Virus record (IMG/VR): IMGVR_UViG_2974716081_000001
Length of the DNA stretch: 64,000 nt
Source of the DNA: a virus
Taxonomy: Duplodnaviria; Heunggongvirae; Uroviricota; Caudoviricetes
Strand: one strand, 5' to 3'
This document shows, in pieces, positions 7,783 through 56,681 of this stretch. The position numbers and the translations under genes are program-made. Positions within the stretch are counted from its first letter, which is position 1; each line of letters opens with the position of its first letter. Below the pieces are notes generated by a model. It was given only the letters and a program-made list of their open reading frames with translations. It did not search any database and was not told where the DNA came from.

Positions 7783-8424
7783 ATGGATAAGAAAATATGC
7801 GTTGTTTCAATGAGCGTCGGCAAACCGGCGTCAATGACTGCTGCATGGATCAACAATGAGCTGATAATGGCTGAGCGGACCAGCTACCCTGAACGCCGCC
7901 GCGATATGGAACTCCAGCTGCTGCGCGAATTGCGAGAAAAAGAGGAAAAGGGTTTTATCGTGCTGGTGGAAGAGGAAAACAGCTTTATTACCGGTCGAGT
8001 TGGCCAGCGTGTAAGGTTGCGTGATCCCTTCATGAACGGTAGACCGGTACTGATTGAAGCAATGCAGATTTACAAGGAATTGGAACGCCAGAAAGCGATC
8101 AAGTTACCGCGCAAGGAATCCGGCAAATACATCCTCCACCAAAGCATCTTCGATTCCGAACATGACAAAAAAGGCGATGAATTTTTCAACATCAACTGGA
8201 GCGAAATAACGACAGAGCACGTTCTGACGTTGTTATGCTGCTTCGCAACGGAATACAACAACGTTGCAAACTCCGACTACATCAGGGCAATGGCTGGAGA
8301 AGTTGAGCCACGCCAGGAACCATCGTTACTAAGCCCACTGATTAACATAATTCGCGGCACACAGAGACTTGCGGAAAAAAGCGTTCCACATGGAATCTTA
8401 ACTGGAAAGGGAAACTATTTTTAA
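7783..8424 (+). CDS. hypothetical protein (at the position where P1 may carry mat; unverified)
   Basis: ORF with RBS GTAGGGGG four nt before ATG (MDKKICVVSMSVGK...); the track start at 7672 is an alternative; no recognisable domain. Confidence 0.5.
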   Translation: MDKKICVVSMSVGKPASMTAAWINNELIMAERTSYPERRRDMELQLLRELREKEEKGFIVLVEEENSFITGRVGQRVRLRDPFMNGRPVLIEAMQIYKELERQKAIKLPRKESGKYILHQSIFDSEHDKKGDEFFNINWSEITTEHVLTLLCCFATEYNNVANSDYIRAMAGEVEPRQEPSLLSPLINIIRGTQRLAEKSVPHGILTGKGNYF

Positions 8425-8465
8425 CGACCTGAGCGCCACTTCTTTCAGGTCGTGTTGGATGTCAT

Positions 8466-8490
8466 AAAAAGGAGGTTTTCACCTCCTTTT
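8466..8490. terminator. bidirectional intrinsic terminator between convergent genes
   Basis: AAAAAGGAGGT-tttc-ACCTCCTTTT: perfect stem flanked by an A-run and a T-run. Confidence 0.7.
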
Positions 8491-8499
8491 AAACTGGAA

Positions 8500-11412: not shown

Positions 11413-11414
11413 GA

Positions 11415-13355
11415 TTAGTTCCTTACCACTAAATCTAACTCAATAGATTTTTTGTTAGCATAACTTTTTAGCGCCTCATTAAGCTCCCTTTGTTTTGCAC
11501 TTTCAAAGTTACAACCATAAAACACGACTTTGTTTGGGGCAAAATCTTCATCTGAATCCAGCTTTTGGAGCAACGCTTTCAATGCTTCGCTAGTAAAATT
11601 AGGTGCAATCAAATACAGACGGCCATTGCAAAAGTGTGCTGTATAGCCACTAAGATCAACATCTTCAATAGGTGTTATTAACAAGCTACCATCATATACA
11701 CACCATGTAGTCAATAGGGCATCATACTGTTCAGGCGTTAATACCGCATCATCAAAGAATGTATGATTAGTGAGCGTAAGTTCAGACTCAACTTTTGCTC
11801 TAAAGTCATCAATAGTATGAATCACTTTGAAACCTATTTTAGCCGCATTATCACTTGTGGTTGTGCTTTTTTTAAATACCTCCTGTATCCTTTTTTTTGT
11901 TATTTCAAAAATAGATCTATAGCCAAGAGAATAGGCATTCTTTGTTTTATTTATAACTTCATCTTTTTGTATGCATATAAAATTCCTACAGCCTGAATCT
12001 TTTTCATTTAAATATGCAACAGCTTCTGCTGTCGTACCAGAGCCAGCAAAAAAGTCAAGAACTAATGAATCCTTTTTTGTTCCTATTTTTACAAGATCGG
12101 TTATAAGAGGAACAGGTTTTGGTCCTTCAAATAATTTTGCACCTAAAAGATTTTTAAGCTCAGTTGTCGCCGTGCTTGTACTATATTCAGGTTTATACCA
12201 AATTGATTTTGGCTTTTTAGTTGGTAGCTCTCCAAGAGCAGGCCGCTGTTTTTTATAGATATTTTTACCATCTTTTATATCTATTACTATTAGATTATAA
12301 AACTCATCATTTATTTTTTTCTTTCCCCACGACCATGAAAGCTCTTCACCCGTAGGGCTTACTGGGTAAAGTACATAGTCATCTTCGTTAAGAGGTTTAT
12401 CATCATCTGTTACATAAACCTTATTTTCTGAATTGATGAATACCGGAAACCAACCTTTTGGTCTTGATTTTCTAGAAGCATCTTGGCCAGTACGCTTTAA
12501 TGTATCAGCTCTTTTAAATAGCCCATATTCATCTTCATCCCACTCTTTTTCAACTTCACTTTCATCAATATCGAATTGCCCCAAACTACAAACATCTTTG
12601 TTTTTAGCGTATACATATATATATTCATGCGTATCTGAAAAGCCAAAGTTATCATGATTGCCTTTGAGATTCATGATTGTAGGGAGTTTTGCAACAAAAT
12701 TACCTTGCCCAAATACTTCGTCGCATAATAATCCCAACTGTTTATCTTCGTTATCGTCTATGGAGATGAATATTACTCCATCCTCTTTTAAAAGTTCACG
12801 TGCAATATAAAGACGAGGATAAATGAATGTCAGCCATGCACTATGACTGCTTGAACCCTTGGTGGTAAATTCAAGTATGCGGTTAGCCTCATCAAGCTCG
12901 ATACCTGCCAGTTCAGAAAGCTGTTCTGGTGTAAACTTGCGATCATCGTTATAGACGAATCCATCTTTACCCGTATTGTATGGTGGGTCAATGTAAATCA
13001 TATTCACCTTTTCAGCATAAGCATTAACCATATGCTTCAATACTTCGAGGTTATCCCCTTTGATTAACAGGTTTTGACTGTTCTTGTTCTCTTCTTGTTG
13101 GTTATGTGTTTTATCTTCTGCCAACAACGTTTTCGGTGGTAGATTGGCCAACAAACGGGCATAAGATTTACCCAGCCAGTTTAAACTGTATGATTCTTTA
13201 GAGAGTTCAACCTCCGATGCTCTAATAATCTCAAGCAATTTTTCTTGAATGAAGGCTCCGTTTTTATCAAAACACTGTGGGAAATTAGCTTTCAACACAG
13301 CCAGTTGCTTGCTGTTAGCCGTTTCTACTTCGGAAAAAATCGTTTCTTTTTTCAT
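11415..13355 (-). CDS. mod: Type III modification methyltransferase Mod (EcoP1I-like, 646 aa)
   Basis: DPPY adenine-methyltransferase motif and FxGxG AdoMet motif; start set at MKKETIFSEV; no IS interruption seen. Confidence 0.9.
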   Translation of the reverse strand: MKKETIFSEVETANSKQLAVLKANFPQCFDKNGAFIQEKLLEIIRASEVELSKESYSLNWLGKSYARLLANLPPKTLLAEDKTHNQQEENKNSQNLLIKGDNLEVLKHMVNAYAEKVNMIYIDPPYNTGKDGFVYNDDRKFTPEQLSELAGIELDEANRILEFTTKGSSSHSAWLTFIYPRLYIARELLKEDGVIFISIDDNEDKQLGLLCDEVFGQGNFVAKLPTIMNLKGNHDNFGFSDTHEYIYVYAKNKDVCSLGQFDIDESEVEKEWDEDEYGLFKRADTLKRTGQDASRKSRPKGWFPVFINSENKVYVTDDDKPLNEDDYVLYPVSPTGEELSWSWGKKKINDEFYNLIVIDIKDGKNIYKKQRPALGELPTKKPKSIWYKPEYSTSTATTELKNLLGAKLFEGPKPVPLITDLVKIGTKKDSLVLDFFAGSGTTAEAVAYLNEKDSGCRNFICIQKDEVINKTKNAYSLGYRSIFEITKKRIQEVFKKSTTTSDNAAKIGFKVIHTIDDFRAKVESELTLTNHTFFDDAVLTPEQYDALLTTWCVYDGSLLITPIEDVDLSGYTAHFCNGRLYLIAPNFTSEALKALLQKLDSDEDFAPNKVVFYGCNFESAKQRELNEALKSYANKKSIELDLVVRN

Positions 13356-13506
13356 ATCCATTTTAAACCAGATCATTTAGCAACAAAGCGCCGCCTCCCC
13401 AGCCCGTTAGAGCCAGAAGTTGTGGCACTATCACTATCTATATGTTTGAAGAATCGTGCTTCTTTGAGCGATGCTCGGTGAGCAAACAGCCATAATTTGG
13501 GGAAGT

Positions 13507-13755
13507 TTAATCCGCATTGAGAAGCAATGCATTATCTATGATGATCTGCTCCCATTCTTCGAATGCCCGGTCACGGACGCCCTGGGGAACGCTGTTAGTT
13601 TTGAAATCGACGACCGTACGCCATTTCCCGTCCGGACGGTACATGCGCAGAGCTTTACTTCCCCCTTCCCTGCGCACCTCAACGTTATGCTTGTCAGCAA
13701 ACTCTTGTAATGCTCGTAGCGTCCCATGCTTTACTGTGTAGTATCGCTTTTTCAA
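13507..13755 (-). CDS. 82-aa basic protein downstream of darB (possibly Lxc/Bof C1 co-repressor; name from size and position only)
   Basis: MKKRYYTVKHGTLRALQEFADKHNVEVRREGG...; start overlaps the upstream gene stop by 4 nt. Confidence 0.4.
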   Translation of the reverse strand: MKKRYYTVKHGTLRALQEFADKHNVEVRREGGSKALRMYRPDGKWRTVVDFKTNSVPQGVRDRAFEEWEQIIIDNALLLNAD

Positions 13756-25530: not shown

Positions 25531-26646
25531 TTAGAATTGGTAGGTCATACCAACAGCAACGATGTTGTCGGTTGCAACCTCAGATGTTTTGGTAAATTCA
25601 CTTTCATCAATCAGGTTGATCTTGTAGTCAACGAAAGCGGACATATTTTTGTTAAAGTAATAAGTCGCGCCCACGTCGATGTATTCAACCAGATCCTGGT
25701 TACCGAACGCACCAATATTTTCACCGCGAGAGTGTAGGTAAGCGATGGACGGACGCAGGCCGAAATCAAACTGGTATTGAGCAACGGCTTCAAAGTTTTT
25801 CGCCTTGTTCGCGATATGGTCATCACCGAAGACTGTCATATTCTGAGTTTCAGAATAAGTTGTAGCCAGGTAAATGTTGTTTGCATCATATTTCAGGCCC
25901 GTAGCCCATACTTCAGCAGTTTTACCAGAGGCATTCAGATTCAGAGGGGCTTTAGCATAGGATACCTGTCCATCAGTACGGTCAGATTTTGCATAAGTTG
26001 CGCCAATGCCAAATCCTTCATAATCATAAGTAGCTGACAGACCGAAGCCATCACCATTAGATTCAACTACGTCGCGGCCTTTCCAGTTGTTCACTTTTGC
26101 AGCACTATCATTTTTACCCTGATACTGCAAAGCAAAGTTCAGACCATCAACCAAGCCGAAGAAATCATTGTTACGATAGGTCGCGACGCCAGTAGCACGC
26201 TGGGTCATAAATACATCAGTCTGAGTCCAGGTATCTCCACCAAACTCCGGCAGCACGTCAGTCCAAGCGCCAACATCATACGCTACACCGTAGTTGCGAC
26301 CATAGTCGAGCGAACCATAATCGCCAAAGCGAAGCCCTGCAAACGCAAGACGAGTTTTATCTTTATCAGAACCTTCAGTTTCAGTACGGTTACCTTTAAA
26401 TTCGTACTCCCACTGACCAAAACCGGTTAACTGGTCATTAATCTGAGTTTCACCTTTGAAACCCATACGAGCATAAGTTTTATCCCCGTCATCACTAGCT
26501 GAAGAAGAGAAGTAATGCTCTGCATTAACTTTGCCGTACAGATCCAGTTTGTTACCGTCTTTGTTATAGATTTCTGCCGCTTGTGCAGACATTGCCATCA
26601 GGACTGATGCTGCAACCGCAGAAAGTGCCACTGTGATTTTTTTCAT
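25531..26646 (-). CDS. OmpC/OmpF-family general porin with signal peptide (phage-borne cargo)
   Basis: 371 aa; signal peptide [23 protein letters not shown]; motifs [44 protein letters not shown]-terminal YQF shared with enterobacterial porins. Confidence 0.85.
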
Positions 26647-26757
26647 TTTTTTGCCCTTTAGATTGAACTTTTCAGTAGAAAAGAGGTCACTGCGGACAAA
26701 TGTTTATCTTTTTTGGATTCGTGTTTCAAGTTTTGCAAATAAAAATCAAGGTATTTT

Positions 26758-26773
26758 TGTGATCAAAATCACA
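26758..26773. promoter_or_regulatory. CRP-type palindrome TGTGA-N6-TCACA about 110 bp upstream of the porin start
   Basis: perfect TGTGATCAAAATCACA inside a larger palindrome CAAGGT...ACCTTG (26748-26787). Confidence 0.4.
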
Positions 26774-27385
26774 AATAATAACCTTGAAAACCCAATGGAC
26801 TATTAGAAAAATCTCAATTCACAGAATAAAAATTGACAAAATAGAACAAAACACAATCAACAATAAGCACAAAAGACAAACAATTAAATTAGCACAAAAA
26901 TAATAACTGCAAAAATAGATAGTCTGTTAATTAATAGGGTTTTAATGGATGTGGATTTGAAATCTACTTAAAAAGTAGAGTCAAATTAATTACTGTCGAT
27001 TGGGTATTAAACTGAATCTATATTGTGAGAGTTAAAGACGATGTGTTTTAGTTATACATGTTATTCCCTAAAATGGAGTAGTCTCATCGAATTCTGATTA
27101 ATAACGAGCTAAGCCAATTCATTTTAGTATGTGTATATCTTTACCCTCTGAATATGCAATGACGAAGAGATATTAAACAATATGTAGCTTCAGGATTGAC
27201 TCTGGAAGAATTAAAAGATCGGCTAAAGTGTTCAATATGTGGTGAGCGAAACGCAAAAATTAAAATTTTTTGATCTAACATATTAGGCAATAGCTTGCTT
27301 CCATAACCTAAAGCAAGCCACTACGCGTTTACTTTAAGTACACAATTAACATATCAGAACAGATTATTTGTGCACTATCAGGGAG

Positions 27386-27691
27386 TTAATATACGATCTG
27401 GTCTACATGATCCCCAAAATCATCGTCGTCCTCATCGCCACCCTCTACTGCTGGCCAATCGACAAACCAGCCAGCGTAAAGATGCAGCGTTCGGAGAACA
27501 TCACTTGCGGGAGCATCAAGGGTGTTAACGAATCCCATATAGCTATTGGGATTTGCCCCAGCTATGGCTTCAGCGATCATGTCCTCGGTAATGTCACCGG
27601 AGATAATGCTTAAACGCCCGGAAACTTCTTCATTATCATCAAATTCGATAATGGCATCTCCGCCTAATGGCGCTGCGATTTTAATCTGCAT
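27386..27691 (-). CDS. acidic 101-aa protein downstream of ddrB (hypothetical)
   Basis: start overlaps the upstream stop; C-terminal EGGDEDDDDFGD acidic patch. Confidence 0.45.
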   Translation of the reverse strand: MQIKIAAPLGGDAIIEFDDNEEVSGRLSIISGDITEDMIAEAIAGANPNSYMGFVNTLDAPASDVLRTLHLYAGWFVDWPAVEGGDEDDDDFGDHVDQIVY

Positions 27692-30668
27692 TATTTAGCT
27701 CCTTTGCCACACCTAATAACAGTTCCAGCAATCCGTCACCATTCATCAGTGATGCGGCAGCGGCCTCTTTGTCATGATACAACTGAAGAGCCATAGAGAA
27801 TACTTCCGTTGCTGATGTTTTTGAAATAGTCGGTGCTTTCTGCCGAATTTTCCCGGAGTTACTCACTGAGGCTGGCGGGTATACCTTCGCCATATAAATA
27901 TTACTCAATCGAGATCTGAAGCACCATTCAGGCTTGCCACGCCCACCGATATTAACGAAAGATGGCTTATCCCCTTCAACATTGGCCTTCAGGAATGACC
28001 GGGCTTTCTCTAACAAACCAGGGTTACTGTACTCAAGATGATGACCCAGCTCGTGCCACAGTGCACTTGCATTTTCATCGTTCAAATTGACAGCAACAAC
28101 ACCATTAAGATTTGCATATGCCCTTCCCTGGTGGTGAACCACCTTTGATAAGGTCGAAATTTTACCGCCGGTCAGGCGATAAATATCAGCAAGTTCCTTG
28201 CGCAGGTCTATCCCACCATTCTGTCCAGCGCGGGCTTCTTCCACTTCTTCCGTGATAAAAGAGTCGGCCCACTCAAGAGCTTTTTCTTCAGATACGGATG
28301 AGTTTGCGATCGCACTGTTCATGGCAGATAACACTTTCTCGTGGACCGAACCCATACTTCGCTGATTCATTTGCCAGCGTGTCTGCGGGTTATATGAGAA
28401 TCGCTTAAGTAGTTGGTCAAGCTGCTCAAGTTCTTCTTCACTGACATACCTTTTAGCCTCACCAATAATGCCAGGGAGAATATTGCCGTTAGGATTAAAC
28501 GCTCGCGAAAGGAAGAGTTTCAGCGCCCCCATGCCCTCCGATGCTTCAATATCACCAATAACCCGGTTAACAATGGCCGCACTCTTCGGATTAGCATCCG
28601 CCAATGCTCTGGCTACAATTTGCAGGGACGATACGACCTCACGCTGCATATCCGTCCTGATCTCATCAATAAACTCTGGCGTTATGCCGTGCTCTTTAAG
28701 GATATCCCTGCCTTCCGCCGTTACCCCATCGATATCACCGACATGTTTATTAACCCGACTTTGCAATGCCTTAAATGCCTTCAGAATTCCACGGGCATCA
28801 TCCGCTTTACTAACGGCCTTCCTGAATGCTGGCAAGAAGTCTGAGTTAACCTCATTTTGTTGATCGGCCCACTGAATGGAGGCTTCTTTCATCTCGTCCA
28901 GAGTCAGATCACCCAACGCGGTATGGTCTGTGAATATGAGCGACAACCTCTGAACCATTTCTGCCAATGGTGATGCCGAATGCGCCGCGCTAAGGAATGC
29001 TTTCACCCTGGTTGGGCGAATGGAAAACCAGTCAATAGCTGGTGGCATATCTCCGTTTTTTATCGCCTGCGCTATCTCGTCAAAGCCATCGCGCCCAAGG
29101 GAGGATGCGTGATTTAACAAGCCGCGAAGTAACGAATTGCTGATACCGAATAATCGGCACCATTTTTTCACGTCGGCAACAGGCATTCGAACAAAATGCG
29201 CAAGCACTTGAACAAGCTGTTCATCCTGGGGATCTGTACGGGAAAGCAGCCTGATCAGATGAATAATGTCTTTGATGCCGGATGCCCGATGTAATAGCAA
29301 ACTGGTATATGGAGCAACACCGTTGTAACTACCGCCGGAAACGGACTCGAAAAGACCGCCGGATATCCCTTGCATGCCTTCGTTTTCCAGTTCCTGAGAC
29401 ACCTGGCGAAGGATATCCTGTAACGACACATCACCACCGCCAAACATATCCCCCAGCGCCTGGCACTGGTGCTGTAACTCATCATTGATACGTTGAGCCA
29501 TCAATTTAAAGGCGGTGGCCATACGCTTCGCGCTACGGTTATTCGCGACGATGAATAACGCGAGAGCTTTCACTTCCGGGGCTGTTTCGCTGAACATATC
29601 CCCCTGAGCAATAACATCGGTAATATGTTGGCCTGACTCCTTCGATTGCCTTACCAGGTCTACCGCATCTTTCAATGCCGCCAGCGCCTTTTTATCGAGA
29701 CTATCCGCTGTCTCAATACCATCAACAATAGTTGTCACAGCCTGCTTGTGCGCTTCACCTGATAAAGCCTGCATCTGGACAAAATCATTGGCTGCCGCAT
29801 TAAGCGCCGTCAGAACATTACGCATATCTGGATCAGGTTCTTCTGCAACCATCCTTACCAGGCGCGCATCCTTATATGCCTTGGCAAAGATCGCGTTTTG
29901 TATACGGTCTACAAGTTGCCGTGTTGGTCGCCCATCTTTCGTTACAAGGCCAGCAGCCTGTGTGGCACCAACTTGCGTCATGAATCCGCGGATAAACGCG
30001 TCATTACTGCGGCTAAGCAGATCTCCGCTTTCTGACGGGTTAAACAGCGCCATCATCGCCGAAGTTATGTTGTCGGCATCAACAAAAGCCTTTTCACTGG
30101 CTGCCATTTCCTGAAGATCAGAAATATTTGAGTCCTTGGCAAACTGAACGCGGTCAACCTTAGTTAACCGGCGGCGCACCAGTACCGGAGCCGCCATTGA
30201 TTCAACCTTTTCAGGTCGTATGCCGAATTCGGTCGCATGATCAATCAGGTACTCACGATACCGATCCGCATTGCCGTCCTGATAGGCTTTGATGATCCCC
30301 ATGGTCCGTCCATTACCTGACTCAACGGCATTGTCCTCACCAATTATCGGCGCTCCATGGCTGGATAAACCGGAATCGGTAAGCTGAGCAGGCCGCAAAT
30401 CCTTGGATATCTGGTTAACCTGAAGAAGGCTGGATGCGCGGGTCCGGTCGCGCGGCTGAAGTTCCTGGGGATAGTCCGGATTAATTTTCCCGTCCAGAGT
30501 ATTGGATACCAAAAGAGCTGAGGCATCGACGATATCAAACGCTGTTTTTACCTCGTCTCCCTTCGCTGTCACCACATACGAAACCCGCCCGAAATCGGGC
30601 AGGTTTTTTAGCAGCTCGATCAGCGTTTCTATGCTGGTGGCCATTACCACCTGATCGCTTAAGCTCAT
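27681..30668 (-). CDS. ddrB: DdrB-like 995-aa protein of the darA operon
   Basis: large ORF third in line after darA and ddrA on the same strand; assigned by operon position. Confidence 0.7.
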   Translation of the reverse strand: MSLSDQVVMATSIETLIELLKNLPDFGRVSYVVTAKGDEVKTAFDIVDASALLVSNTLDGKINPDYPQELQPRDRTRASSLLQVNQISKDLRPAQLTDSGLSSHGAPIIGEDNAVESGNGRTMGIIKAYQDGNADRYREYLIDHATEFGIRPEKVESMAAPVLVRRRLTKVDRVQFAKDSNISDLQEMAASEKAFVDADNITSAMMALFNPSESGDLLSRSNDAFIRGFMTQVGATQAAGLVTKDGRPTRQLVDRIQNAIFAKAYKDARLVRMVAEEPDPDMRNVLTALNAAANDFVQMQALSGEAHKQAVTTIVDGIETADSLDKKALAALKDAVDLVRQSKESGQHITDVIAQGDMFSETAPEVKALALFIVANNRSAKRMATAFKLMAQRINDELQHQCQALGDMFGGGDVSLQDILRQVSQELENEGMQGISGGLFESVSGGSYNGVAPYTSLLLHRASGIKDIIHLIRLLSRTDPQDEQLVQVLAHFVRMPVADVKKWCRLFGISNSLLRGLLNHASSLGRDGFDEIAQAIKNGDMPPAIDWFSIRPTRVKAFLSAAHSASPLAEMVQRLSLIFTDHTALGDLTLDEMKEASIQWADQQNEVNSDFLPAFRKAVSKADDARGILKAFKALQSRVNKHVGDIDGVTAEGRDILKEHGITPEFIDEIRTDMQREVVSSLQIVARALADANPKSAAIVNRVIGDIEASEGMGALKLFLSRAFNPNGNILPGIIGEAKRYVSEEELEQLDQLLKRFSYNPQTRWQMNQRSMGSVHEKVLSAMNSAIANSSVSEEKALEWADSFITEEVEEARAGQNGGIDLRKELADIYRLTGGKISTLSKVVHHQGRAYANLNGVVAVNLNDENASALWHELGHHLEYSNPGLLEKARSFLKANVEGDKPSFVNIGGRGKPEWCFRSRLSNIYMAKVYPPASVSNSGKIRQKAPTISKTSATEVFSMALQLYHDKEAAAASLMNGDGLLELLLGVAKELNNAD

Positions 30669-49506: not shown

Positions 49507-50046
49507 CTACCACCAACTGCTAGCTTTCTTCTCTCTAGCTTTTCCTTCGCTTTGCAGTAAATCTTTACTTCCTGTAGAAATATTTCTATTTGCATCAGCC
49601 TCAGACTGAATTACATCTGTCTTAGCTGCTCTCTCCTTCAACTCCTGCTCTATAAAATCGTTTTCTCGCTGGACACGAGCCGCTTTTGCTTGCAGTTCGA
49701 GTTTCATGCTTTCGAGTTGCAGCTTGCGAAGCTCATCCTCATAAGCTTGATCTCGCTTCTTGTCATTTGCTAGCTCGGCTTCTCGTTTCGCTCTACGTTC
49801 ATTTTCTGCAGCAACACGCTGTTTTTCGCGTGCAGCAGCGGCAGATGCTGCTTTTTCTCTTCTAATACGTTCAGCTTGTGCTTGTTGGCGAATAAGTTCT
49901 TTTCTGGCATCCTCAGCTTGCTGCTCTTTAGCTCGCCCTTCATTTTCCGCTTGAGCAATAGCAGCAATTTGACTTTGCAACGAGTTAGCCAAGGCAGTGC
50001 CTACACTAAACGTAGAAAAGATTAGAAATAAAATAATTTTATTCAT
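49507..50046 (-). CDS. secreted charged coiled-coil protein (TolA-like repeats; candidate exclusion factor)
   Basis: 179 aa; signal peptide MNKIILFLIFSTFSVGTALA; long A/E/K/R/Q-rich helical region; C-terminal WW. Confidence 0.55.
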   Translation of the reverse strand: MNKIILFLIFSTFSVGTALANSLQSQIAAIAQAENEGRAKEQQAEDARKELIRQQAQAERIRREKAASAAAAREKQRVAAENERRAKREAELANDKKRDQAYEDELRKLQLESMKLELQAKAARVQRENDFIEQELKERAAKTDVIQSEADANRNISTGSKDLLQSEGKAREKKASSWW

Positions 50047-50049
50047 AAA

Positions 50050-50571
50050 TTATTTCTTTTCTGGACAAGTAGCATTTGGCTGAATTCGAGTTTCATTATC
50101 TTTAGTTGAAATAAGCACAGCAAGCCCCGTTGTAAACTGGCATGCTTTACCAACTTGAGTTGAAGTGAACACCTTAGTTCCTTCTTTATAAGTCAGTGAA
50201 ACACCTTCAACAATTGTTTTATCACTAACCAAAGAACCAGCCGCTGCACCAAGAGCCGCACCACCAGTACCGCCAGCTACAGCACCCAGTGTCGATGTGC
50301 CTTTAACATTATAACCGGCAACGCCCCCAGCAACAGCTCCCAGTACCGCACCAAATGTCTGTGCCGCTTCTTTATTAGCTTTATTATCAACTTTCACTTT
50401 AGCTGGAAGCACAGAGATAATATTGACTGTCTTTGTTTCCTGCTTCGAATTCAATTGAGCGGTATCATAAACATCGGCAGCATAATCAGCACCGCTAGAT
50501 TGACACCCAGAAAGAAGAATTGCAGATACAACAAGAGCGCATAAAGTATACTTTTTAGACATAAGAATCAT
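50050..50571 (-). CDS. outer-membrane lipoprotein with glycine-zipper motif (SlyB/Pcp-like)
   Basis: 173 aa; lipobox LLSGC; GAVLGAVAGGVAGYNVKGTSTLGAVAGGTGGAALGAAAGS glycine zipper. Confidence 0.6.
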   Translation of the reverse strand: MILMSKKYTLCALVVSAILLSGCQSSGADYAADVYDTAQLNSKQETKTVNIISVLPAKVKVDNKANKEAAQTFGAVLGAVAGGVAGYNVKGTSTLGAVAGGTGGAALGAAAGSLVSDKTIVEGVSLTYKEGTKVFTSTQVGKACQFTTGLAVLISTKDNETRIQPNATCPEKK

Positions 50572-50851
50572 CCCAGAAAAACAAAAACCGGCGAGAAGTT
50601 ACCACGAGAACGGAAAGTAAACAAGAATACTCCCATTGACTTATATCAATTAATCAACTTTTTATAAGCTATCCCTAACTTATTGTGTATAGCTGAAAAG
50701 TCAGAGATAAGTTCACCATCTGCATTATTTCTTAAGTTAATAGTTTATTGCTAACTTAATTTATGTATCGACTATTAATATCCATCTTAAAGTTACAATA
50801 TCCCTCTGCATTATTTTTCATCACAAATAATATATCTATTGCACGACACTA

Positions 50852-50869
50852 ATCTGCTCTAATAAATTT
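50852..50869 (+). promoter_or_regulatory. C1 operator (Op51-like) upstream of the c4-icd-ant operon
   Basis: ATCTGCTCTAATAAATTT. Confidence 0.6.
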
Positions 50870-51056
50870 GTATTTTTAAGTCACGAATGCTATCTTTTCG
50901 CATCATATTGACCTTTTAATCGTTCAGGCTTATAGTTCCGCCGTCGTAGCAAATTCTGCGACCGGGTTTAGCAGCCTGAATGATTGTGCGGACAGCCGCA
51001 GATATCCGATATTGCGGTATTTTTGTGTCCGTAAAACCGCGTTACGCCCAAATTAT

Positions 51057-51135
51057 GGTGGGGCGTGATGGGGAGGCTTCGGCCTGCTGGTTTCACAATC
51101 GCCAGTCTGCTAACCCCGTCACGTCCTGCCACCTG
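51057..51135 (+). ncRNA. c4: candidate c4 antisense RNA (immI repressor); boundaries approximate
   Basis: GC-rich structured segment with a GAGGCTTCGGCCTGC hairpin upstream of icd where P1 encodes c4; boundaries not determinable by eye. Confidence 0.4.
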
Positions 51136-51183
51136 TTTAGCAGCGGGTAGCAGGTTGTTAAACCTGATTGTGAGGCCGTAACT

Positions 51184-51405
51184 ATGGTTAATGCCAATCC
51201 TTGCGCACGCCAAGAATTCATCTGGCGTTTCTATTCCTGTAAAAAACACCACTATCACTTCGTCATCGCAGCAACAGAAGACGAAGCACGCTCTCAATTG
51301 CCTGATGGCCCCTGCATTTTTACTGCCCGTTTTTCAACTAACTCGCGCAATTCACTTAGTTACTGGAACCTCCCCTTCTCTGCCGACGTTCAGGGGGGTT
51401 TATGA
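51184..51405 (+). CDS. icd: Icd cell-division inhibitor (73 aa), overlapping the ant start
   Basis: 73-aa ORF whose stop overlaps the ant ATG by 4 nt. Confidence 0.7.
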   Translation: MVNANPCARQEFIWRFYSCKKHHYHFVIAATEDEARSQLPDGPCIFTARFSTNSRNSLSYWNLPFSADVQGGL

Positions 51406-52448
51406 AAAAACCTCTCGTCACCCGTAATGACATAGCCGAAGCGATCGCCCTGCATACTGCCTGTATGCCGACACGGGAGATCCCCGGCGCAATTGCTAAC
51501 TATTTCATGATAACCAGGCGTTTTTATACCCGAACAGATAAGGCTGTGATCAACAGGCTACTGATAGCCGAGATCAGGGATTATTTGATTGAACAAGGAC
51601 GTCTACGTTACGCAACAGTGGCAGCAGAAATGAGAAAGGAGGCACATAGAATGACCGGTAATAATTTGAATGTTGAAAAACCAGCACCTGTTACGTCAGC
51701 TACGCCAGCACCAGCCGTGAATATTATCCCCAACACCGGAGACACAATCGACAGCCTGACACTGTTAAAGATGGTCAATGAGGCACGGAAATTATGTAGC
51801 GAAAAACCAGTTCGCAACAATGATTTCATTGCCAGAGTTAAGGATGAGCTTGATGGGGAGGGTTACGAAATCTTCGTAACCCCTATGGATAAGAAAAAAG
51901 GTGGAGCGGATCAGGTAGTTATAGTAATGACATACAAACAAGCCCTGCGCGTTGCTGCTCGCGAATCGAAAGCGGTCCGCCGTTCGCTGATCGACAAACT
52001 GGAAGAATTGCAGCAGGCAAACTCCCCTACCCCATCGATCCCCCAAACATTACCAGAAGCTCTACGCCTGGCTGCCGAGTTGGCAGAACAGAAAATGCAG
52101 TTGGAACAACAGCTGGTGGCCGCAGCCCCTAAAGTCGATTTTGCCGACCGGGTATCAGCGGCTAATGGAATCCTGATCGGGAACTTTGCAAAGGTCGTTG
52201 GACTTAAGCAAAACGCCCTTTTCTCATGGTTGCGCCAGAACGGCATTCTCATGGCTTTTGGTACGCGCAAAAACGTACCGCGCCAGCAGTACATTAACGC
52301 CGGGTATTTCACGGTGAAAGAAGTGGTGCTGGATGATGAAAATGGCTACCAGATACGGCTGACGCCCCAATTAACGGGTAAAGGCCAGCAGTGGTTAACT
52401 CGCAAGCTACTTGATGCTGGTTTGTTAAAACCAGTAGCAATAGGTTAA
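51402..52448 (+). CDS. ant: antirepressor Ant (KilAC-type C-terminal domain)
   Basis: 348 aa; C-terminal about 130 aa is a close paralog of the KilA C-terminus (PQTLPEALRLAAELAEQK...GKGQQWL). Confidence 0.75.
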   Translation: MKKPLVTRNDIAEAIALHTACMPTREIPGAIANYFMITRRFYTRTDKAVINRLLIAEIRDYLIEQGRLRYATVAAEMRKEAHRMTGNNLNVEKPAPVTSATPAPAVNIIPNTGDTIDSLTLLKMVNEARKLCSEKPVRNNDFIARVKDELDGEGYEIFVTPMDKKKGGADQVVIVMTYKQALRVAARESKAVRRSLIDKLEELQQANSPTPSIPQTLPEALRLAAELAEQKMQLEQQLVAAAPKVDFADRVSAANGILIGNFAKVVGLKQNALFSWLRQNGILMAFGTRKNVPRQQYINAGYFTVKEVVLDDENGYQIRLTPQLTGKGQQWLTRKLLDAGLLKPVAIG

Positions 52449-52525: not shown

Positions 52526-52543
52526 ATTTGCTCTAATAAATTT
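52526..52543 (+). promoter_or_regulatory. C1 operator (Op53-like) upstream of kilA-repL
   Basis: ATTTGCTCTAATAAATTT. Confidence 0.6.
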
Positions 52544-52612: not shown

Positions 52613-53413
52613 ATGCAACAAACATTCAATGCGGATATGAATATATCAAACCTTCATCAAAATGTCGATCCTTCAACCACTCTGCCTGTTATTTGTGGTG
52701 TTGAAATTACGACCGACCGCGCTGGCCGTTACAACCTTAATGCTCTACACAGAGCGAGCGGACTCGGTGCCCATAAAGCGCCAGCTCAATGGCTAAGAAC
52801 GCTGTCAGCCAAACAGCTCATCGAAGAGCTTGAAAAAGAAACTATGCAGAATTGCATAGTTTCGTTCGAAGGCCGTGGCGGCGGCACTTTTGCCCATGAA
52901 TTGCTCGCTGTGGAGTACGCAGGCTGGATTTCTCCCGCGTTTCGGCTGAAGGTAAACCAGACATTTATCGACTATCGAGCTGGAAGATTACAACCTGCTA
53001 TTCCGCAGAGTCTCCCTGAAGCTCTCCGTTTGGCTGCCGACCTGGCAGAGCAAAAGCAACGGCTGGAGCAAAAAATGCTTATGGATGCACCTAAAGTCGA
53101 ATTCGCCGAACGCGTTGCTACCGCCAGCGGGGTTCTAATCGGCAACTATGCCAAAGTGCTCGGCCTGGGCCAAAACTATCTCTTCACCTGGTTGCGTGAT
53201 AACGGAATTCTGATCGCAACCGGTGAACGCAGGAACGTCCCCAAACAAGAATACATATCCCGTGGGTATTTCACCCTTAAAGAAACCGTGATCGATACAA
53301 GCAATGGAAGCAGGATTTCTTTCACGACTCGTATAACCGGCAAAGGTCAGCAGTGGCTTATGAAGCGATTGCTTGATGCTGGTGTGCTGGTGCCTGTCGC
53401 GGCGACGCGCTAA
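52613..53413 (+). CDS. kilA: KilA (KilA-N plus KilAC domains)
   Basis: 266 aa, the size of P1 KilA; directly upstream of repL. Confidence 0.8.
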   Translation: MQQTFNADMNISNLHQNVDPSTTLPVICGVEITTDRAGRYNLNALHRASGLGAHKAPAQWLRTLSAKQLIEELEKETMQNCIVSFEGRGGGTFAHELLAVEYAGWISPAFRLKVNQTFIDYRAGRLQPAIPQSLPEALRLAADLAEQKQRLEQKMLMDAPKVEFAERVATASGVLIGNYAKVLGLGQNYLFTWLRDNGILIATGERRNVPKQEYISRGYFTLKETVIDTSNGSRISFTTRITGKGQQWLMKRLLDAGVLVPVAATR

Positions 53414-53442
53414 CAGACGTAGTAAGAACCACCAGCATTGTA

Positions 53443-54288
53443 ATGCTGGCTAAAGTCACTTTCCTGAGCTGTATAACGATGAGCGATTTTACTTTTTCTG
53501 GCTATGAATTGGCCTGCTTTGTAACACACTCCGGTCTATCCCGTAGCGCCGGGCATATCCTGTCGCAATGTGCAAATCTCGCGGCAACAACCAGTGAATA
53601 CTTCATTCACAAGCCTCACCGCCTGATCGCGGCAGAAACTGGTTATAGCCAATCAACCGTCGTTCGTGCATTCCGTGAAGCTGTAAACAAAGGAATCCTG
53701 TCTGTAGAGATTGTTATCGGCGATCACCGTGAACGTCGCGCTAACCTGTACCGGTTTACACCATCCTTTTTGGCCTTCGCACAACAAGCCAAAAATGCGC
53801 TGATTGAAAGCAAATTAAAGATCTCTTCAGCGGCAACCAAGGTTAAAGCTGTTCTCGCTAAGACATTGGCTTTATTTAATTTTTTATCCACACCCCCATG
53901 TCAAAATGATACCCCCTCCCCCTGTCAGGATGACGTGGCAATAAAGAATAAGAAGTCACAAGTTAAAAAAACAAAAAGATCAGTTTCCGGCGGTGCCGGA
54001 ACGACCAGACTCAAAAAATTGACTTCATGGATCGCTGAGGCAAAAGCAAAGGCTGACAATCTGCGGTTATCCAAAAAACGCGCTCAAAAACATGAGTTCA
54101 AGCAGAAAGTAGAGGCGGCAGCGCGGAAATATGCTTACCTGAAGGACAAGCGTTCTCCTGATATTGGCGGGATATCAAACTTCGATAATCTGCCGCATTG
54201 CATGACGGTAAACGAAGCTCTTAATGCGGTTTTAGCCAAAAATAAAGATAACGAACAATGGGGTATACCGGCAGGATTCAGAGGGTGA
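53443..54288 (+). CDS. repL: RepL lytic replication initiator (oriL expected inside the gene)
   Basis: 281 aa, the size of P1 RepL; follows kilA under the operator-controlled promoter. Confidence 0.85.
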   Translation: MLAKVTFLSCITMSDFTFSGYELACFVTHSGLSRSAGHILSQCANLAATTSEYFIHKPHRLIAAETGYSQSTVVRAFREAVNKGILSVEIVIGDHRERRANLYRFTPSFLAFAQQAKNALIESKLKISSAATKVKAVLAKTLALFNFLSTPPCQNDTPSPCQDDVAIKNKKSQVKKTKRSVSGGAGTTRLKKLTSWIAEAKAKADNLRLSKKRAQKHEFKQKVEAAARKYAYLKDKRSPDIGGISNFDNLPHCMTVNEALNAVLAKNKDNEQWGIPAGFRG

Positions 54289-54291
54289 TAG

Positions 54292-54308
54292 ATTGCTCTA
54301 ATTATAAC
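54292..54308 (+). promoter_or_regulatory. C1 operator-like site immediately downstream of repL, upstream of the AT-rich two-gene module
   Basis: ATTGCTCTAATTATAAC. Confidence 0.5.
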
Positions 54309-54456
54309 CATGCATACTTTCAACACCTCTAGTTTGCCATGAGGAAAACTCATAGGCGTCCTGGTAAGATGACGTAGTTAGCAAATCAGAACGTCCCATT
54401 ATTGCAATTAATAAACAACTAACGGACAATTCTACCTAACAATAAGTGGAGTTAAC

Positions 54457-55161
54457 ATGTTGAACCGAAGAACATTTAATGTATTCTGCGATGAATCCTG
54501 TCACCTACTAAATGATCATAATAAAGTCATGGTATTGGGTGCGCTTTGGTGTCCTGGCACTATCACAAAAAAAATTGCTAGAGACATCAAGGAATTAAAA
54601 TTAAAACACAATCTAAAACCTGATTTCGAAATCAAGTGGACTAAAGTATCTGCGTCCAAAGTTGAATTTTACTTAGATGTCGTAGATTACTTCTTCAGCA
54701 ACCCAGCATTGCGCTTTAGAGGTGTTGTTGTTCCTGATAAAGAGCAACTGGACCATGCTCGATTCCATCAAGATCATAATACTTTCTATTATAAGATGTT
54801 TTTTTATGTCTTAAAAAACATAATAGAAAGTAACAACACATACAATATCTACCTAGATATAAAAGATACTTTAGGTATTGAAAAAATTGAGAAATTAAGA
54901 GGGGTTCTTCACAATGATCGCTATGATTACAATCATGAGTCGATAAACAGAATTCAACATATACGATCTCATGAAGTGCAACAATTGCAGCTAACGGATC
55001 TTTTCATTGGTGCATTAGGCTACGTTCATCGAGGAATGAATAGCAACGCGGGAAAAATCCAAGTCATAAACAGGATAAAATCACATACAAACAGGGAGTT
55101 ACTAAAAAGCACTCTTCCAACAGAAAGTAAATTTAATATTTTCGTGTGGGAGGCTCGCTGA
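54457..55161 (+). CDS. DUF3800-like protein (at the P1 rlfA position), AT-rich
   Basis: 234 aa; N-terminal FNVFCDESCH motif resembling the DUF3800 signature as I recall it; codon usage markedly AT-rich compared with neighbours. Confidence 0.6.
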   Translation: MLNRRTFNVFCDESCHLLNDHNKVMVLGALWCPGTITKKIARDIKELKLKHNLKPDFEIKWTKVSASKVEFYLDVVDYFFSNPALRFRGVVVPDKEQLDHARFHQDHNTFYYKMFFYVLKNIIESNNTYNIYLDIKDTLGIEKIEKLRGVLHNDRYDYNHESINRIQHIRSHEVQQLQLTDLFIGALGYVHRGMNSNAGKIQVINRIKSHTNRELLKSTLPTESKFNIFVWEAR

Positions 55162-55625
55162 TGCTTCAAATGCCAGATTTATTGTACTTCAATGGAAGTT
55201 GGCAAGAGTATATAGCCGATGTATATGATATTGTCAGAGAAGACATTTTAATCTCTAATATAACGTTTAAGGGTCTCCCTGTTCGATTACGTTATTCACC
55301 GGAATATGATGGGAAAGAGTTCGGATTTTGGCATTTAGTATCAGAGGGAAAAAAAGAAGAAGAACGTATACCCGATCTTGAACGGTGCAAGCGAATTCGC
55401 TGGATCGCGCATATGATAAGGAATTATAACCATTGCGATATATCATGTTGGTCTGAAAGACGAGGACCAACTGAAGAGTGGGTAATCTGGAATGAGTGTG
55501 AAAACTACGTTGTTGTGCTATCCGCACGTAGAGACTATTGGCTTCTCAAAACAGCCTATGTTGTAACCTATGACAGTAAAATCAGAACACTCAAACAAAG
55601 CAGAAAAAGAGCACTTGGGACATAA
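55146..55625 (+). CDS. partner protein overlapping the DUF3800-like gene (at the P1 rlfB position)
   Basis: 159-aa ORF overlapping the upstream gene by 16 nt; Cys/His-containing region CKRIRWIAHMIRNYNHCDISC. Confidence 0.5.
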   Translation: MGGSLMLQMPDLLYFNGSWQEYIADVYDIVREDILISNITFKGLPVRLRYSPEYDGKEFGFWHLVSEGKKEEERIPDLERCKRIRWIAHMIRNYNHCDISCWSERRGPTEEWVIWNECENYVVVLSARRDYWLLKTAYVVTYDSKIRTLKQSRKRALGT

Positions 55626-55791
55626 AAAAGCTGAACCCGACACATATTGCTATGTATCGGGTTCGATCGCTCTTTCTACACATGGTAGATGAGTAAGTCA
55701 AATCTAACCGATCTACTTTAGCTTTTCAATAGCTAGCTATAACTTTCCGCATATATTCTTCTGATAATTCCTGGAGAGCGGTTGGGTTTTC

Positions 55792-56088
55792 TCATGCTTT
55801 TCTGCGCAGAGAAGCACACTTATTCAGCAATAATAAATGCAATTCTTTGTTATCACTAAGTATTTCTACACACCAATATCGTAACGTGTTCACTTCAAGT
55901 GTAGCCAGCACCTTATGTCGAAAAGCCCCCTCCCCTACACATAACGATGGCTGACATTCTGCTAAGGCACATAACCATGTATTGGCATCATAGAGAACCC
56001 AATAATGCTCATCTGAAATAGTTATGCATCCAATTATTTCGAATCTTCTTTCTATCGTCTCAGGAGAGTATGAAAAATCAATTTCCAT
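55792..56088 (-). CDS. hypothetical 98-aa protein (at the P1 pmgF position)
   Basis: ORF at the distal end of the leftward structural operon. Confidence 0.4.
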   Translation of the reverse strand: MEIDFSYSPETIERRFEIIGCITISDEHYWVLYDANTWLCALAECQPSLCVGEGAFRHKVLATLEVNTLRYWCVEILSDNKELHLLLLNKCASLRRKA

Positions 56089-56171
56089 AACATGCTCAAA
56101 ATCTATCTATACCGGCATAATTTAAGCACAAAAAAGCTCCCGAAGGAGCTTTAAAATACAAGGGATGACTC

Positions 56172-56681
56172 TTAATCCCACTCAATCCAGTTGTAAACGA
56201 TACGAAGTGACGGGCGCACAGCGGCAGTCACATCTTCAGTACTAAAGTCGATTGCATCACTGTAGATTTTGCAGTCCAACATTTCAATTGTTGTAGCAGC
56301 TTTTGTCACAGCGTTAACCCCGGAAGATTTGGATTCAGGGGTCGCAGCCATCGTGATATCAACATAGTCCTTCGCCGCAATGCGATCTTTAATGAACTGA
56401 AGAATATCGCCTTCGATAGTCTCCACGCACTGGACCTGGATTTCCCCGGAGTTACGGATTGGACCGTGCTGGTTGAACTTCACACCATTCGGACCATAGT
56501 CCTCCACATCCTCACGGGTCATTTCAGGGATCTGCGACGTGCGGACCAGTACGCTGATATCTTCATGGCCTGCAAAAGTGAGCTGGAATTCAGAAGATAC
56601 GAGTCGTTCGCCTTTGGCCGCGTTGGCAGTATAGCGGCCCTTAATAAATTTACGGTTTCCCTTAGTGTTATTGTGCCCCAT
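56172..56681 (-). CDS. virion structural protein (tail tube or baseplate candidate)
   Basis: 169-aa ORF in the structural operon with sheath and head genes. Confidence 0.5.
   Translation of the reverse strand: MGHNNTKGNRKFIKGRYTANAAKGERLVSSEFQLTFAGHEDISVLVRTSQIPEMTREDVEDYGPNGVKFNQHGPIRNSGEIQVQCVETIEGDILQFIKDRIAAKDYVDITMAATPESKSSGVNAVTKAATTIEMLDCKIYSDAIDFSTEDVTAAVRPSLRIVYNWIEWD

What the first reader, a model, noticed from the sequence alone, without database searches (positions are those of the whole stretch)
54292..55625. AT-rich overlapping two-gene module (DUF3800-like plus partner) after repL: candidate defence or anti-defence system
Both genes are far more AT-rich than the surrounding phage backbone, overlap by 16 nt, and follow an operator-like site, implying horizontal acquisition and immunity-linked control. 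The first has a DUF3800-like CDES motif and the second a Cys/His cluster. Function is undescribed as far as I know; the architecture resembles abortive-infection or nuclease-regulator pairs.
Basis: inference. Interest (0 to 1): 0.65.

Follow-up and report, generated by a model that had tools for sequence, protein, structure and literature searches.

The report
P1 rlfA-rlfB candidate defence nuclease pair
The two AT-rich genes after repL are the long-annotated but uncharacterised rlfA and rlfB of phage P1, a mobile pair already listed as an untested anti-phage defence candidate (PADLOC PDC-M04), and they probably encode an RNase H2-like nuclease and a possibly RelE/colicin-D-like partner.

Summary
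The window is a P1-like phage-plasmid. The finding is rlfA (54457-55161) and rlfB (55161-55625), 97.7% identical to P1. They lie behind the annotated C1 operator Orlf/Op55 (54292-54308).

Confirmed: low GC (36.6% against 47.1%), the operator, and DUF3800 for RlfA (E=3.5e-14).

Corrected: rlfB most likely starts at the ATG at 55161, so the overlap is 1 nt (TGATG), not 16. The Cys/His cluster is not conserved.

Both proteins match PADLOC candidate system PDC-M04 (E=1e-95 and 1e-52). That candidate was predicted by embedding in known defence systems and I found no test of it.

The rlfA-rlfB order holds in 81 of 82 loci across many phyla. Half of 12 annotated contexts lie inside type I restriction operons directly after hsdS; most others are prophage or island cargo. 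RepL co-occurs only in P1-like elements, and only 121 of 517 repL-positive E. coli genomes carry rlfAB.

Verdict: a real, already catalogued, mechanistically unknown candidate defence module. Interest is moderate.

The parts
54292..54308 (+). C1 repressor operator Orlf (former Op55), ATTGCTCTAATTATAAC, 3 nt after the repL stop codon
   Evidence: Identical to the protein_bind feature annotated in P1 NC_005856. The operator core is over-represented in the window.
54402..54430 (+). Predicted weak sigma-70 promoter PrlfA (TTGCAA, 17-nt spacer, GACAAT), 94 nt downstream of the operator
   Evidence: Transferred from the P1 annotation; the sequence is identical in this stretch. It scores 8 of 12 and falls below the threshold of the consensus scan. 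It has not been shown experimentally.
54457..55161 (+). rlfA, 234 aa: DUF3800 protein with an RNase HII/H2-like fold and candidate catalytic residues D12, E13, D134, D181
55161..55625 (+). rlfB, 154 aa from the ATG at 55161 (alternative GTG at 55146): family without a Pfam model, tentative colicin-D/RelE-like fold, invariant H58 and near-invariant R69, R75, R78, W57, W81, W97
55148..55163 (+). Coupling junction: GGGAGG Shine-Dalgarno inside the end of rlfA, then the rlfA stop TGA overlapping the rlfB ATG by 1 nt (TGATG)
   Evidence: Read directly from the sequence. Tight or overlapping junctions occur in the homologous loci.
55633..55664 (.). G+C-rich 14-bp hairpin between the convergent rlfB and pmgF genes; a likely bidirectional terminator that ends the rlfAB transcript
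   Evidence: The terminator scan calls it on the minus strand. On the plus strand it follows the rlfB stop by 8 nt. No plus-strand terminator was found between repL and rlfA.

Best explanation
The locus is rlfA-rlfB of a P1-like phage-plasmid. I read it as a self-contained, horizontally mobile two-gene conflict (anti-phage defence) module, the one PADLOC lists as candidate PDC-M04.

Shown:
- The gene identity and the strict rlfA-then-rlfB pairing across phyla.
- The frequent position directly after hsdS inside type I restriction-modification operons, or as accessory cargo of prophages and integrative elements.
- An RNase HII/H2-like fold for RlfA, with an intact D-E...D...D set.

Inferred:
- RlfA is a metal-dependent nuclease or nucleic-acid sensor, probably acting on RNA:DNA hybrids or structured nucleic acid.
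- RlfB may be a metal-independent RNase of the RelE/colicin-D kind that uses invariant H58 and three near-invariant arginines.
- The two proteins form a latent complex that is harmless when constitutively expressed. That follows because rlfA is translationally coupled to hsdS in many hosts.
- The complex is switched on by infection and then degrades phage or cellular RNA or nucleic acid, stopping phage growth. This would be a second line of defence behind restriction, functionally like PrrC in the EcoprrI locus.

In P1 the module lies at the distal end of the C1-controlled kilA-repL transcription unit, behind its own C1 operator. Its expression is therefore probably tied to loss of immunity or to early lytic growth.

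Confidence by layer: identity as rlfAB/PDC-M04 about 0.99; a defence or inter-element conflict role about 0.6; the specific two-nuclease mechanism about 0.25.
For: Identity: 97.7% nucleotide identity and synteny with P1 repL-rlfA-rlfB-pmgF-bplB.

PADLOC: PDC-M04A E=1e-95 and PDC-M04B E=1.2e-52. PDC systems were defined by embedding in BREX, DISARM or type I RM systems, and PDC-M04 is cassette CAS_00034.

Independent context survey: 6 of 12 annotated RlfA contexts lie in type I RM operons directly after hsdS, four of them with a 4-nt overlap with hsdS (L005, L012, L054, L087). Four more are prophage or integrative-element cargo, and one lies beside an MmeI-type enzyme. Type I RM genes lie within 10 kb in 12 of 35 genome loci.

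Pairing: RlfA is immediately upstream of RlfB in 81 of 82 loci.

DUF3800 in other immune systems: retron type VII (PMC7736814) and Cas12a2/a3 and type VI-F loci.

Dispensability: rlfA and rlfB are non-essential for P1 lytic growth (PMC10695390), and the locus is variable among P1-like elements.
Against: No experiment shows defence by PDC-M04 or by rlfAB. I found no paper on PDC-M04 in the searchable library, and it was not among the candidates tested in the cold-seep study.

A C1 operator, and the absence of a terminator after repL, suggest repression in lysogens. That fits poorly with protection of the lysogen.

A preprint groups rlfA/B with early replication genes during P1vir infection.

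Several contexts show no neighbouring defence genes (for example L017, L088).
Confidence: 0.55

Rival explanations
1. Toxin-antitoxin or addiction module. RlfB is a RelE/ColD-like toxin and RlfA its antitoxin or controller. The main selected role is stabilising the mobile element that carries it (P1 plasmid-prophage, islands, RM operons), with no dedicated anti-phage role.
Against: RlfA is a 234-aa protein with a conserved RNase H-like catalytic set. It lacks the DNA-binding and disordered layout typical of a type II antitoxin. It is the more conserved partner (52-88% identity against 25-75% for RlfB), the reverse of most toxin-antitoxin pairs. P1 already carries phd-doc (established knowledge). 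Translational coupling to hsdS points to function within an immune operon. Toxin-antitoxin and abortive-infection roles are not mutually exclusive.
Confidence: 0.12
2. Replication-linked function, the original meaning of 'rlf'. RlfA acts as an RNase H that processes primers or R-loops at oriL, and RlfB assists lytic replication.
For: The genes lie directly downstream of repL/oriL in the same transcriptional direction with no intervening terminator. RlfA has an RNase H2-like fold. The genes are co-induced with repL in P1vir RNA-seq. P1 RefSeq and PHROG 16230 label RlfB 'replication protein'.
Against: Both genes are non-essential in CRISPRi with efficiency of plating near 1. They are absent from about three quarters of repL-positive E. 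coli elements and are replaced by unrelated cargo in other P1-like phages. RepL is found next to rlfAB only in P1-like loci and in none of about 50 other loci. The 'replication protein' label has no domain support.
Confidence: 0.07
3. Anti-defence or host-takeover function in P1. The nucleases are expressed on derepression and destroy host immune nucleic acids, such as retron msDNA, guide RNAs or R-loops, or host RNAs, to favour P1 lytic growth.
For: C1-operator control and position in an early lytic operon. An RNase H-like enzyme could cleave RNA:DNA hybrids such as msDNA (inference).
Against: Close homologs are chromosomal, translationally coupled to host hsdS, and embedded in host immune operons. 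That is the signature of host-side immunity. P1's known anti-restriction genes are elsewhere (established knowledge). No anti-defence family match was found.
Confidence: 0.08
4. Same defence role with a different division of labour. RlfA is the sole effector nuclease. RlfB is a non-catalytic sensor or adaptor with a RelE/ParE-like or different fold, and its conserved His, Arg and Trp residues bind a ligand or a phage protein.
For: The fold assignment for RlfB is weak. The conserved residues lie largely in helices rather than on the sheet face used by RelE. RlfB evolves faster, as sensors of phage proteins often do. PADLOC needs 13 HMMs for the B component and 2 for A.
Confidence: 0.18

Closest known systems
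Phage P1 rlfA/rlfB (NC_005856 P1_gp051/gp052)
   Same: 97.7% nucleotide identity over repL-bplB. Same gene order, the same Orlf/Op55 operator and the same predicted PrlfA.
   Different: Only point differences. The window is a P1 relative, closest to E. coli plasmid NZ_CP032067 at 99.9%. The P1 note 'possibly associated with lytic replication' is not borne out by context.
PADLOC phage defence candidate PDC-M04 (Payne et al. 2024 bioRxiv, 'guilt-by-embedding')
   Same: Both proteins hit the A and B HMMs at E=1e-95 and 1e-52, in A-then-B order. I independently recovered the embedding in type I RM operons.
   Different: PDC-M04 is a prediction without experimental validation or a proposed mechanism. 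The P1 copy is not embedded in an RM system. It is behind a phage repressor operator.
PrrC anticodon nuclease in the EcoprrI type I RM locus (and RloC)
   Same: A latent RNase-type effector encoded inside a type I hsd operon. It serves as the conceptual model for a second line of defence coupled to restriction. This rests on established knowledge; PrrC is cited as almost exclusively RM-embedded.
   Different: PrrC is a single ABC-ATPase-plus-nuclease protein with no similarity to RlfA or RlfB. No evidence yet shows that RlfAB senses anti-restriction or interacts with Hsd proteins. RlfAB also occurs without any RM system.
DUF3800 effectors of type VII retrons and TPR-DUF3800 accessory proteins of Cas12a2/a3 and type VI-F loci
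   Same: The same Pfam family with an RNase H2-like fold. All are placed in immune systems as presumed nucleases.
   Different: Those proteins are fused to or partnered with a reverse transcriptase, TPR repeats or Cas12, not with an RlfB-type protein. Retron DUF3800 proteins lack the Q of QxxD, which RlfA keeps. None of the 11 DUF3800-associated RNA motifs of Rfam is present here.
RNase HII / RNase H2A
   Different: No sequence-level membership: there is no RNase_HII Pfam hit. RlfA has many extra invariant residues (S14, C15, H16, E58, K60, W61, H100, H107, K136, D137). The substrate is unknown.
RelE/ParE superfamily and colicin D / CdiA tRNase toxin domains (BECR fold)
   Different: No sequence similarity. 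Foldseek is not significant. RlfB has an extra N-terminal helix-strand unit and a fourth or fifth strand. Its catalytic geometry is untested.
TgvAB, the type I RM-embedded two-gene GmrSD-like system of Vibrio cholerae VPI-2
   Same: A validated example of a two-gene defence operon nested inside a type I RM operon that needs both genes (PMC11411939).
   Different: The proteins are unrelated (DUF262/DUF1524 type IV restriction), and the mechanism differs (modified-DNA cleavage).

Membership tests
Pfam DUF3800 (PF12686) | Score above the curated gathering threshold | tested here: met
   54.2 bits against a cut-off of 21, E=3.5e-14, covering profile positions 1-148 of 149.
Pfam DUF3800 (PF12686) | N-terminal DE motif and C-terminal QxxD motif | tested here: met
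   D12-E13 (CDESCH) and Q178-L-T-D181 are invariant in 32 homologs. The motif definition is as quoted in PMC7736814.
PADLOC PDC-M04 (candidate system) | Both component HMMs matched | tested here: met
   PDC-M04A E=1e-95. PDC-M04B E=1.2e-52, plus 11 further B models.
PADLOC PDC-M04 (candidate system) | Adjacent genes in A-then-B order on the same strand | tested here: met
   The window has a 1-nt overlap. The order holds in 81 of 82 homologous loci.
PADLOC PDC-M04 (candidate system) | Anti-phage activity | not testable with these tools
   No published test was found. Phage challenge is needed.
Phage P1 rlfA-rlfB locus | Sequence identity and synteny repL-Orlf-rlfA-rlfB-pmgF-bplB | tested here: met
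   97.7% identity over 2.8 kb, with an identical operator and promoter region.
RNase HII/H2 family | Sequence membership (Pfam RNase_HII) | tested here: not met
   No hit at E up to 1.
RNase HII/H2 family | RNase H-like fold with a DEDD-type carboxylate set | tested here: met
RNase HII/H2 family | Cleavage of the RNA strand of RNA:DNA hybrids | not testable with these tools
   A biochemical assay is required.
RelE/ParE-colicin D (BECR) RNase toxins | Sequence or profile similarity to a member family | tested here: not met
   No Pfam hit for any of 29 members. No PDB sequence hit with the profile at E up to 10.
RelE/ParE-colicin D (BECR) RNase toxins | Shared fold | tested here: inconclusive
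RelE/ParE-colicin D (BECR) RNase toxins | Catalytic residues in the active-site cleft, and RNase activity or toxicity | not testable with these tools
   H58, R69, R75 and R78 are conserved, but no residue-level superposition or assay was available.
Type II toxin-antitoxin module | Small labile antitoxin with a DNA-binding domain that neutralises the toxin | tested here: not met
   The upstream partner is a 234-aa RNase H-like enzyme with no HTH, RHH or AbrB hit and a well-folded model.
DUF3800-associated structured RNAs (Rfam DUF3800-I to XI, drum, skipping-rope) | Covariance-model match near the gene | tested here: not met
   No such family at E up to 10 in 53300-56300. RM-embedded homologs leave no intergenic space.

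The most novel reading that the evidence does not exclude
RlfAB is an infection-triggered dual-nuclease immune module. An RNase H2-like sensor-nuclease (RlfA) recognises phage RNA:DNA hybrid or replication intermediates, or loss of the type I restriction complex. It then licenses a previously unrecognised colicin-D/RelE-like RNase family (RlfB, about 1,750 sequence clusters, no Pfam model) to cut tRNA or mRNA. This would be a two-protein analogue of PrrC coupled to hsdS in many phyla. Phage P1 has placed the module under C1-repressor control, so it fires when immunity collapses or during competition with co-infecting phages.
Probability: 0.15. Interest if true: 0.7.

Novelty: already known. 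Interest (0 to 1): 0.35.

Why it matters
P1 is one of the most used phages in genetics. Two of its genes have carried the unsupported label 'replication-linked' since 2004, and RefSeq propagates 'replication protein' and 'oxidoreductase' for RlfB.

Linking rlfAB to the widespread but untested candidate PDC-M04 gives that candidate a very tractable experimental model: P1 lysogens, c1ts induction and existing CRISPRi tools. It also gives concrete residues to mutate.

If confirmed, it would assign a function to a large DUF3800 clade. It would also define a new RNase-like family (RlfB) and add an example of immunity translationally coupled to type I restriction. Finally, it would raise the question of why a temperate phage puts such a module under its own repressor.

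If not confirmed, the pair remains ordinary accessory cargo in a known variable slot of P1-like plasmids.

Tried and rejected
- **Rfam scan for DUF3800-associated RNA motifs.** A scan at E up to 10 over 53300-56300 gave only chance-level hits to unrelated families.
- **NCBIfam.** No family for either protein.
- **Pfam on all 29 RlfB homologs, and a profile search of PDB sequences.** Nothing.
- **Foldseek of the RlfB model against the PDB.** Nothing significant. The afdb50 library was unavailable.
- **Zinc or Cys/His cluster in RlfB.** Rejected, because the residues are not conserved.
- **GTG start at 55146.** Rejected in favour of the ATG at 55161.
- **pmgF as a third component.** Rejected, because it occurs only in P1-like loci.
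- **Domain fusions of RlfB.** The few longer representatives look like mis-called ORFs with no second domain.
- **RepL linkage.** Rejected, because RepL is next to rlfAB only in P1-like loci.
- **Neighbour annotation by concatenated ORFs.** Abandoned, because ORF calling in high-GC contigs was unreliable. I relied instead on the 12 pre-annotated contexts and on my own Hsd HMMs.
- **Literature searches.** Searches for rlfA/rlfB, DUF3800 and PDC-M04 found no functional study. The P1 genome paper (PMC523184) is not held.
Full report
**What is there**

The window around the finding is a P1-like phage-plasmid. A 2.8-kb query (53400-56200) matches phage P1 over its full length at 97.7% identity. The P1 record annotates kilA, repL (with oriL), rlfA, rlfB, then pmgF, bplB and pmgG on the opposite strand.

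In window coordinates the genes are:
- repL: 53443-54288
- rlfA: 54457-55161 (234 aa)
- rlfB: 55161-55625 (154 aa)
- pmgF: 55792-56088, minus strand

The 'operator-like site' at the start of the finding, ATTGCTCTAATTATAAC (54292-54308), is base-for-base the operator that P1 annotates as 'monovalent C1-controlled operator Orlf; former Op55'. The 11-nt operator core with up to one mismatch occurs 7 times in the window against 1.5 expected from shuffles.

**Checking the observation**

AT-richness is real. rlfA is 34.9% GC and rlfB 39.1%, against 47.1% for the window and 45.7-50.2% for repL and kilA. Only 7.6% of equal-length windows are as low. The low-GC tract (about 53701-56320) also covers pmgF, and it is one of four such tracts in the window. 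The literature already lists 'rlfA, rlfB, pmgF' as variable region 5 of P1-like phage-plasmids and notes its low G+C (PMC9603915).

The DUF3800 assignment holds: 54.2 bits against a gathering threshold of 21, E=3.5e-14.

Two details do not hold.

First, the 16-nt overlap depends on a GTG at 55146. Four things point to the ATG at 55161 instead: the P1 annotation, the PHROG and PADLOC alignments, the 154-aa homologs that begin ML.MP, and a GGGAGG ribosome-binding site at 55148-55153. That start overlaps the rlfA stop by one base, TGATG.

Second, the Cys/His cluster in RlfB is not conserved. In 144 representatives that share less than 50% identity with one another, only H58 is invariant. P5, F56, W57, R69, R75, R78, W81 and W97 reach 90%. 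The NHCDISC residues vary freely.

**What the proteins look like**

*RlfA* is strikingly conserved: 52-88% identity from Enterobacteriaceae to Bacteroidota, Nitrospirota and Desulfobacterota. Its invariant residues include D12, E13, S14, C15, H16, E58, K60, W61, D134, D137, Q178 and D181.

D12 and E13 sit at the end of strand 1, D134 at the end of a later strand, and D181 on a helix. That is the arrangement of the type-2 RNase H carboxylates, but I did not superpose residues.

This agrees with published remarks that DUF3800 is an RNase H2-like fold:
- It is found as the effector of type VII retrons (PMC7736814).
- It is found as a TPR-DUF3800 accessory protein of Cas12a2/a3 and type VI-F loci.

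*RlfB* has no Pfam, NCBIfam or PDB sequence relative. It is nevertheless a large family: 1758 clusters at 50% identity, nearly all stand-alone proteins of about 150-180 aa.

Foldseek finds nothing significant (best E=0.06), although HigB1 and colicin D appear among its weak hits. I therefore treat 'RelE/colicin-D-like RNase' as a moderate-confidence lead. An invariant histidine with three near-invariant arginines fits a metal-independent RNase, but it would also fit a ligand-binding site.

**Where relatives live**

PADLOC's library identifies the pair as candidate system PDC-M04 (A: E=1e-95; B: E=1.2e-52). The PDC candidates come from Payne et al. (bioRxiv 2024). They selected uncharacterised cassettes embedded in BREX, DISARM or type I RM systems. 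Their supplement lists PDC-M04 as cassette CAS_00034. I found no experimental test of it.

My own survey reproduces and sharpens that picture.

Twelve RlfA homologs had pre-annotated contigs:
- Six lie inside type I RM operons directly after hsdS (Methylomonas, Algoriphagus, Marinomonas, a Nitrospirota MAG and two metagenomic contigs). In four of these the rlfA start overlaps the hsdS stop by 4 nt.
- Four are cargo of mobile elements: next to the integrase of an Enterobacter prophage, in the accessory slot between the replication genes and Q of a Serratia lambdoid prophage, and at the integrase edge of an E. coli mobilisable island and of a Halioglobus islet.
- One lies beside an MmeI-type enzyme.
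- One is uninformative.

I also built HMMs from these Hsd proteins. With them, type I RM genes lie within 10 kb in 12 of 35 further genome loci. Those loci span Proteobacteria, Planctomycetota, Verrucomicrobiota, Saccharibacteria, Chloroflexota and Acidobacteriota.

RlfA sits immediately upstream of RlfB in 81 of 82 loci. The one exception is cut off by the contig end.

RepL occurs next to the pair only in P1-like loci, and so does PmgF.

In E. coli complete genomes, repL is present in 517 genomes but rlfAB in only 121. Other P1-like phages carry unrelated cargo between repL and bplB (PMC6906374). CRISPRi knock-down of rlfA or rlfB does not reduce P1 plating (PMC10695390).

Neither condition is met.

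**How it most likely works**

Shown: a strictly paired, horizontally mobile two-gene cassette. One partner has an RNase H2-like fold and an intact acidic set. The cassette is often transcribed and translationally coupled with hsdS.

Inferred from this: because the pair is expressed constitutively in those operons, it must be harmless until triggered. The simplest model is a latent complex of a nucleic-acid-recognising nuclease (RlfA) and a second effector or sensor (RlfB) that infection activates. The complex would then destroy RNA or hybrid nucleic acids and stop phage growth. That would make it a back-up to restriction, in the manner of the PrrC anticodon nuclease of the EcoprrI locus. The comparison is a functional analogy only.

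My estimates are about 0.6 for a defence or inter-element conflict role and about 0.25 for the two-nuclease mechanism as stated. A variant in which RlfB is a non-catalytic sensor is nearly as likely.

**The P1-specific puzzle**

In P1 and in this window the pair lies at the end of the C1-repressed kilA-repL unit.
- No plus-strand terminator separates repL from rlfA.
- A C1 operator sits immediately after repL.
- Only a weak predicted promoter lies 94 nt further on (TTGCAA, 17-nt spacer, GACAAT; 54402-54430).
- A P1vir RNA-seq preprint groups rlfA/B with early replication genes.

If C1 silences rlfAB in lysogens, the module cannot protect the lysogen in the usual way. It would act when immunity collapses or during lytic growth, for example against co-infecting phages. 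Alternatively PrlfA escapes C1. This is unresolved and is the most interesting open point.

**Rivals**

- A pure addiction (toxin-antitoxin) role is possible but fits poorly. The upstream partner is a large, highly conserved enzyme.
- The historical 'replication-linked function' is contradicted by dispensability, by patchy presence among repL-bearing elements, and by the absence of RepL elsewhere.
- An anti-defence role is not supported by the host-side, hsdS-coupled homologs.

**Novelty and verdict**

However, the genes are the named P1 genes rlfA and rlfB, their variability and low GC are published, and the family is already catalogued as PDC-M04.

What this analysis adds:
- the explicit link between P1 rlfAB and PDC-M04;
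- the fold-level description of both partners, with candidate catalytic residues;
- the translational coupling to hsdS;
- the correction of the rlfB start and of the Cys/His claim;
- evidence that the 'replication protein' and 'oxidoreductase' labels are unfounded.

Function remains untested. I rate it as already known, with moderate interest (0.35), mainly because P1 offers an easy route to test a widespread candidate system.

Noticed in passing
window 55161-55625; P0002, P0007, P0008, P0012, P0016; H22-H26: NCBI/RefSeq names RlfB homologs 'oxidoreductase'. P1 RefSeq and PHROG 16230 call RlfB 'replication protein'. No domain hit or genomic context supports either label, so they look like propagated misannotations.
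   Followed up: partly
L008 6183-17617 and L009 (Algoriphagus-type integrative element): Inside one type I RM operon the order is hsdM/S, a 502-aa reverse transcriptase (RVT_1), rlfA, rlfB, hsdR, an unknown 325-aa ORF and a Piwi-domain Argonaute. An RT directly upstream of a DUF3800 gene recalls type VII retrons.
   Followed up: no
L005-L007 (Methylomonas), L028, L050 (Vibrio paucivorans): Decayed copies. rlfB is split into 57-aa and 100-aa ORFs in Methylomonas, rlfA is split in two in L028, and rlfB is truncated in L050. The module is lost as readily as it is gained.
   Followed up: no
L014, L015, L016 (other P1-like phages), slot equivalent to window 54289-56171: The repL-bplB slot holds different cargo in other P1-like phages. 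MH422554 carries a MokW (hok/mok-type) ORF, 673R5 carries small hypothetical ORFs, and SJ46 carries a second RepL-annotated ORF plus an ORF annotated as Lom outer membrane protein. The slot behaves as an accessory-gene hotspot.
   Followed up: partly
window 7901-13620, 25851-28020, 49701-51170: Three further tracts with GC below 40% in 1.2-kb windows. They probably correspond to other published variable regions of P1-like elements (for example res-mod and sim), but I did not check this here.
   Followed up: no
window 1963, 20923, 24773, 50853, 52527: Further matches to the C1 operator consensus ATTGCTCTAATAAATTT with up to 3 mismatches: 5 found against 0.29 expected. The site at 52527 is upstream of kilA, where P1 has OrepL/Op53.
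   Followed up: partly
window 53443-54288 (repL): RepL gives only sub-threshold HTH hits (MarR_2, HTH_36; E about 0.01), yet RefSeq annotates it as 'MarR family transcriptional regulator' in E. coli plasmids.
   Followed up: no
window 51402-52448 and 52613-53413: The 348-aa Ant1 and the 266-aa KilA share a clearly similar C-terminal half (…PQ.LPEALRLAA.LAEQK…GNFAKV.GL.QN.LF.WLR.NGIL…). This is visible directly in the ORF translations.
   Followed up: no
L087 4725-5810: In one RM-embedded locus a Virulence_RhuM gene and an unknown ORF lie between hsdM and hsdS, ahead of rlfAB. RhuM-domain proteins are themselves a PADLOC candidate (PDC-S05) reported to protect against T4, T5 and T7.
   Followed up: no
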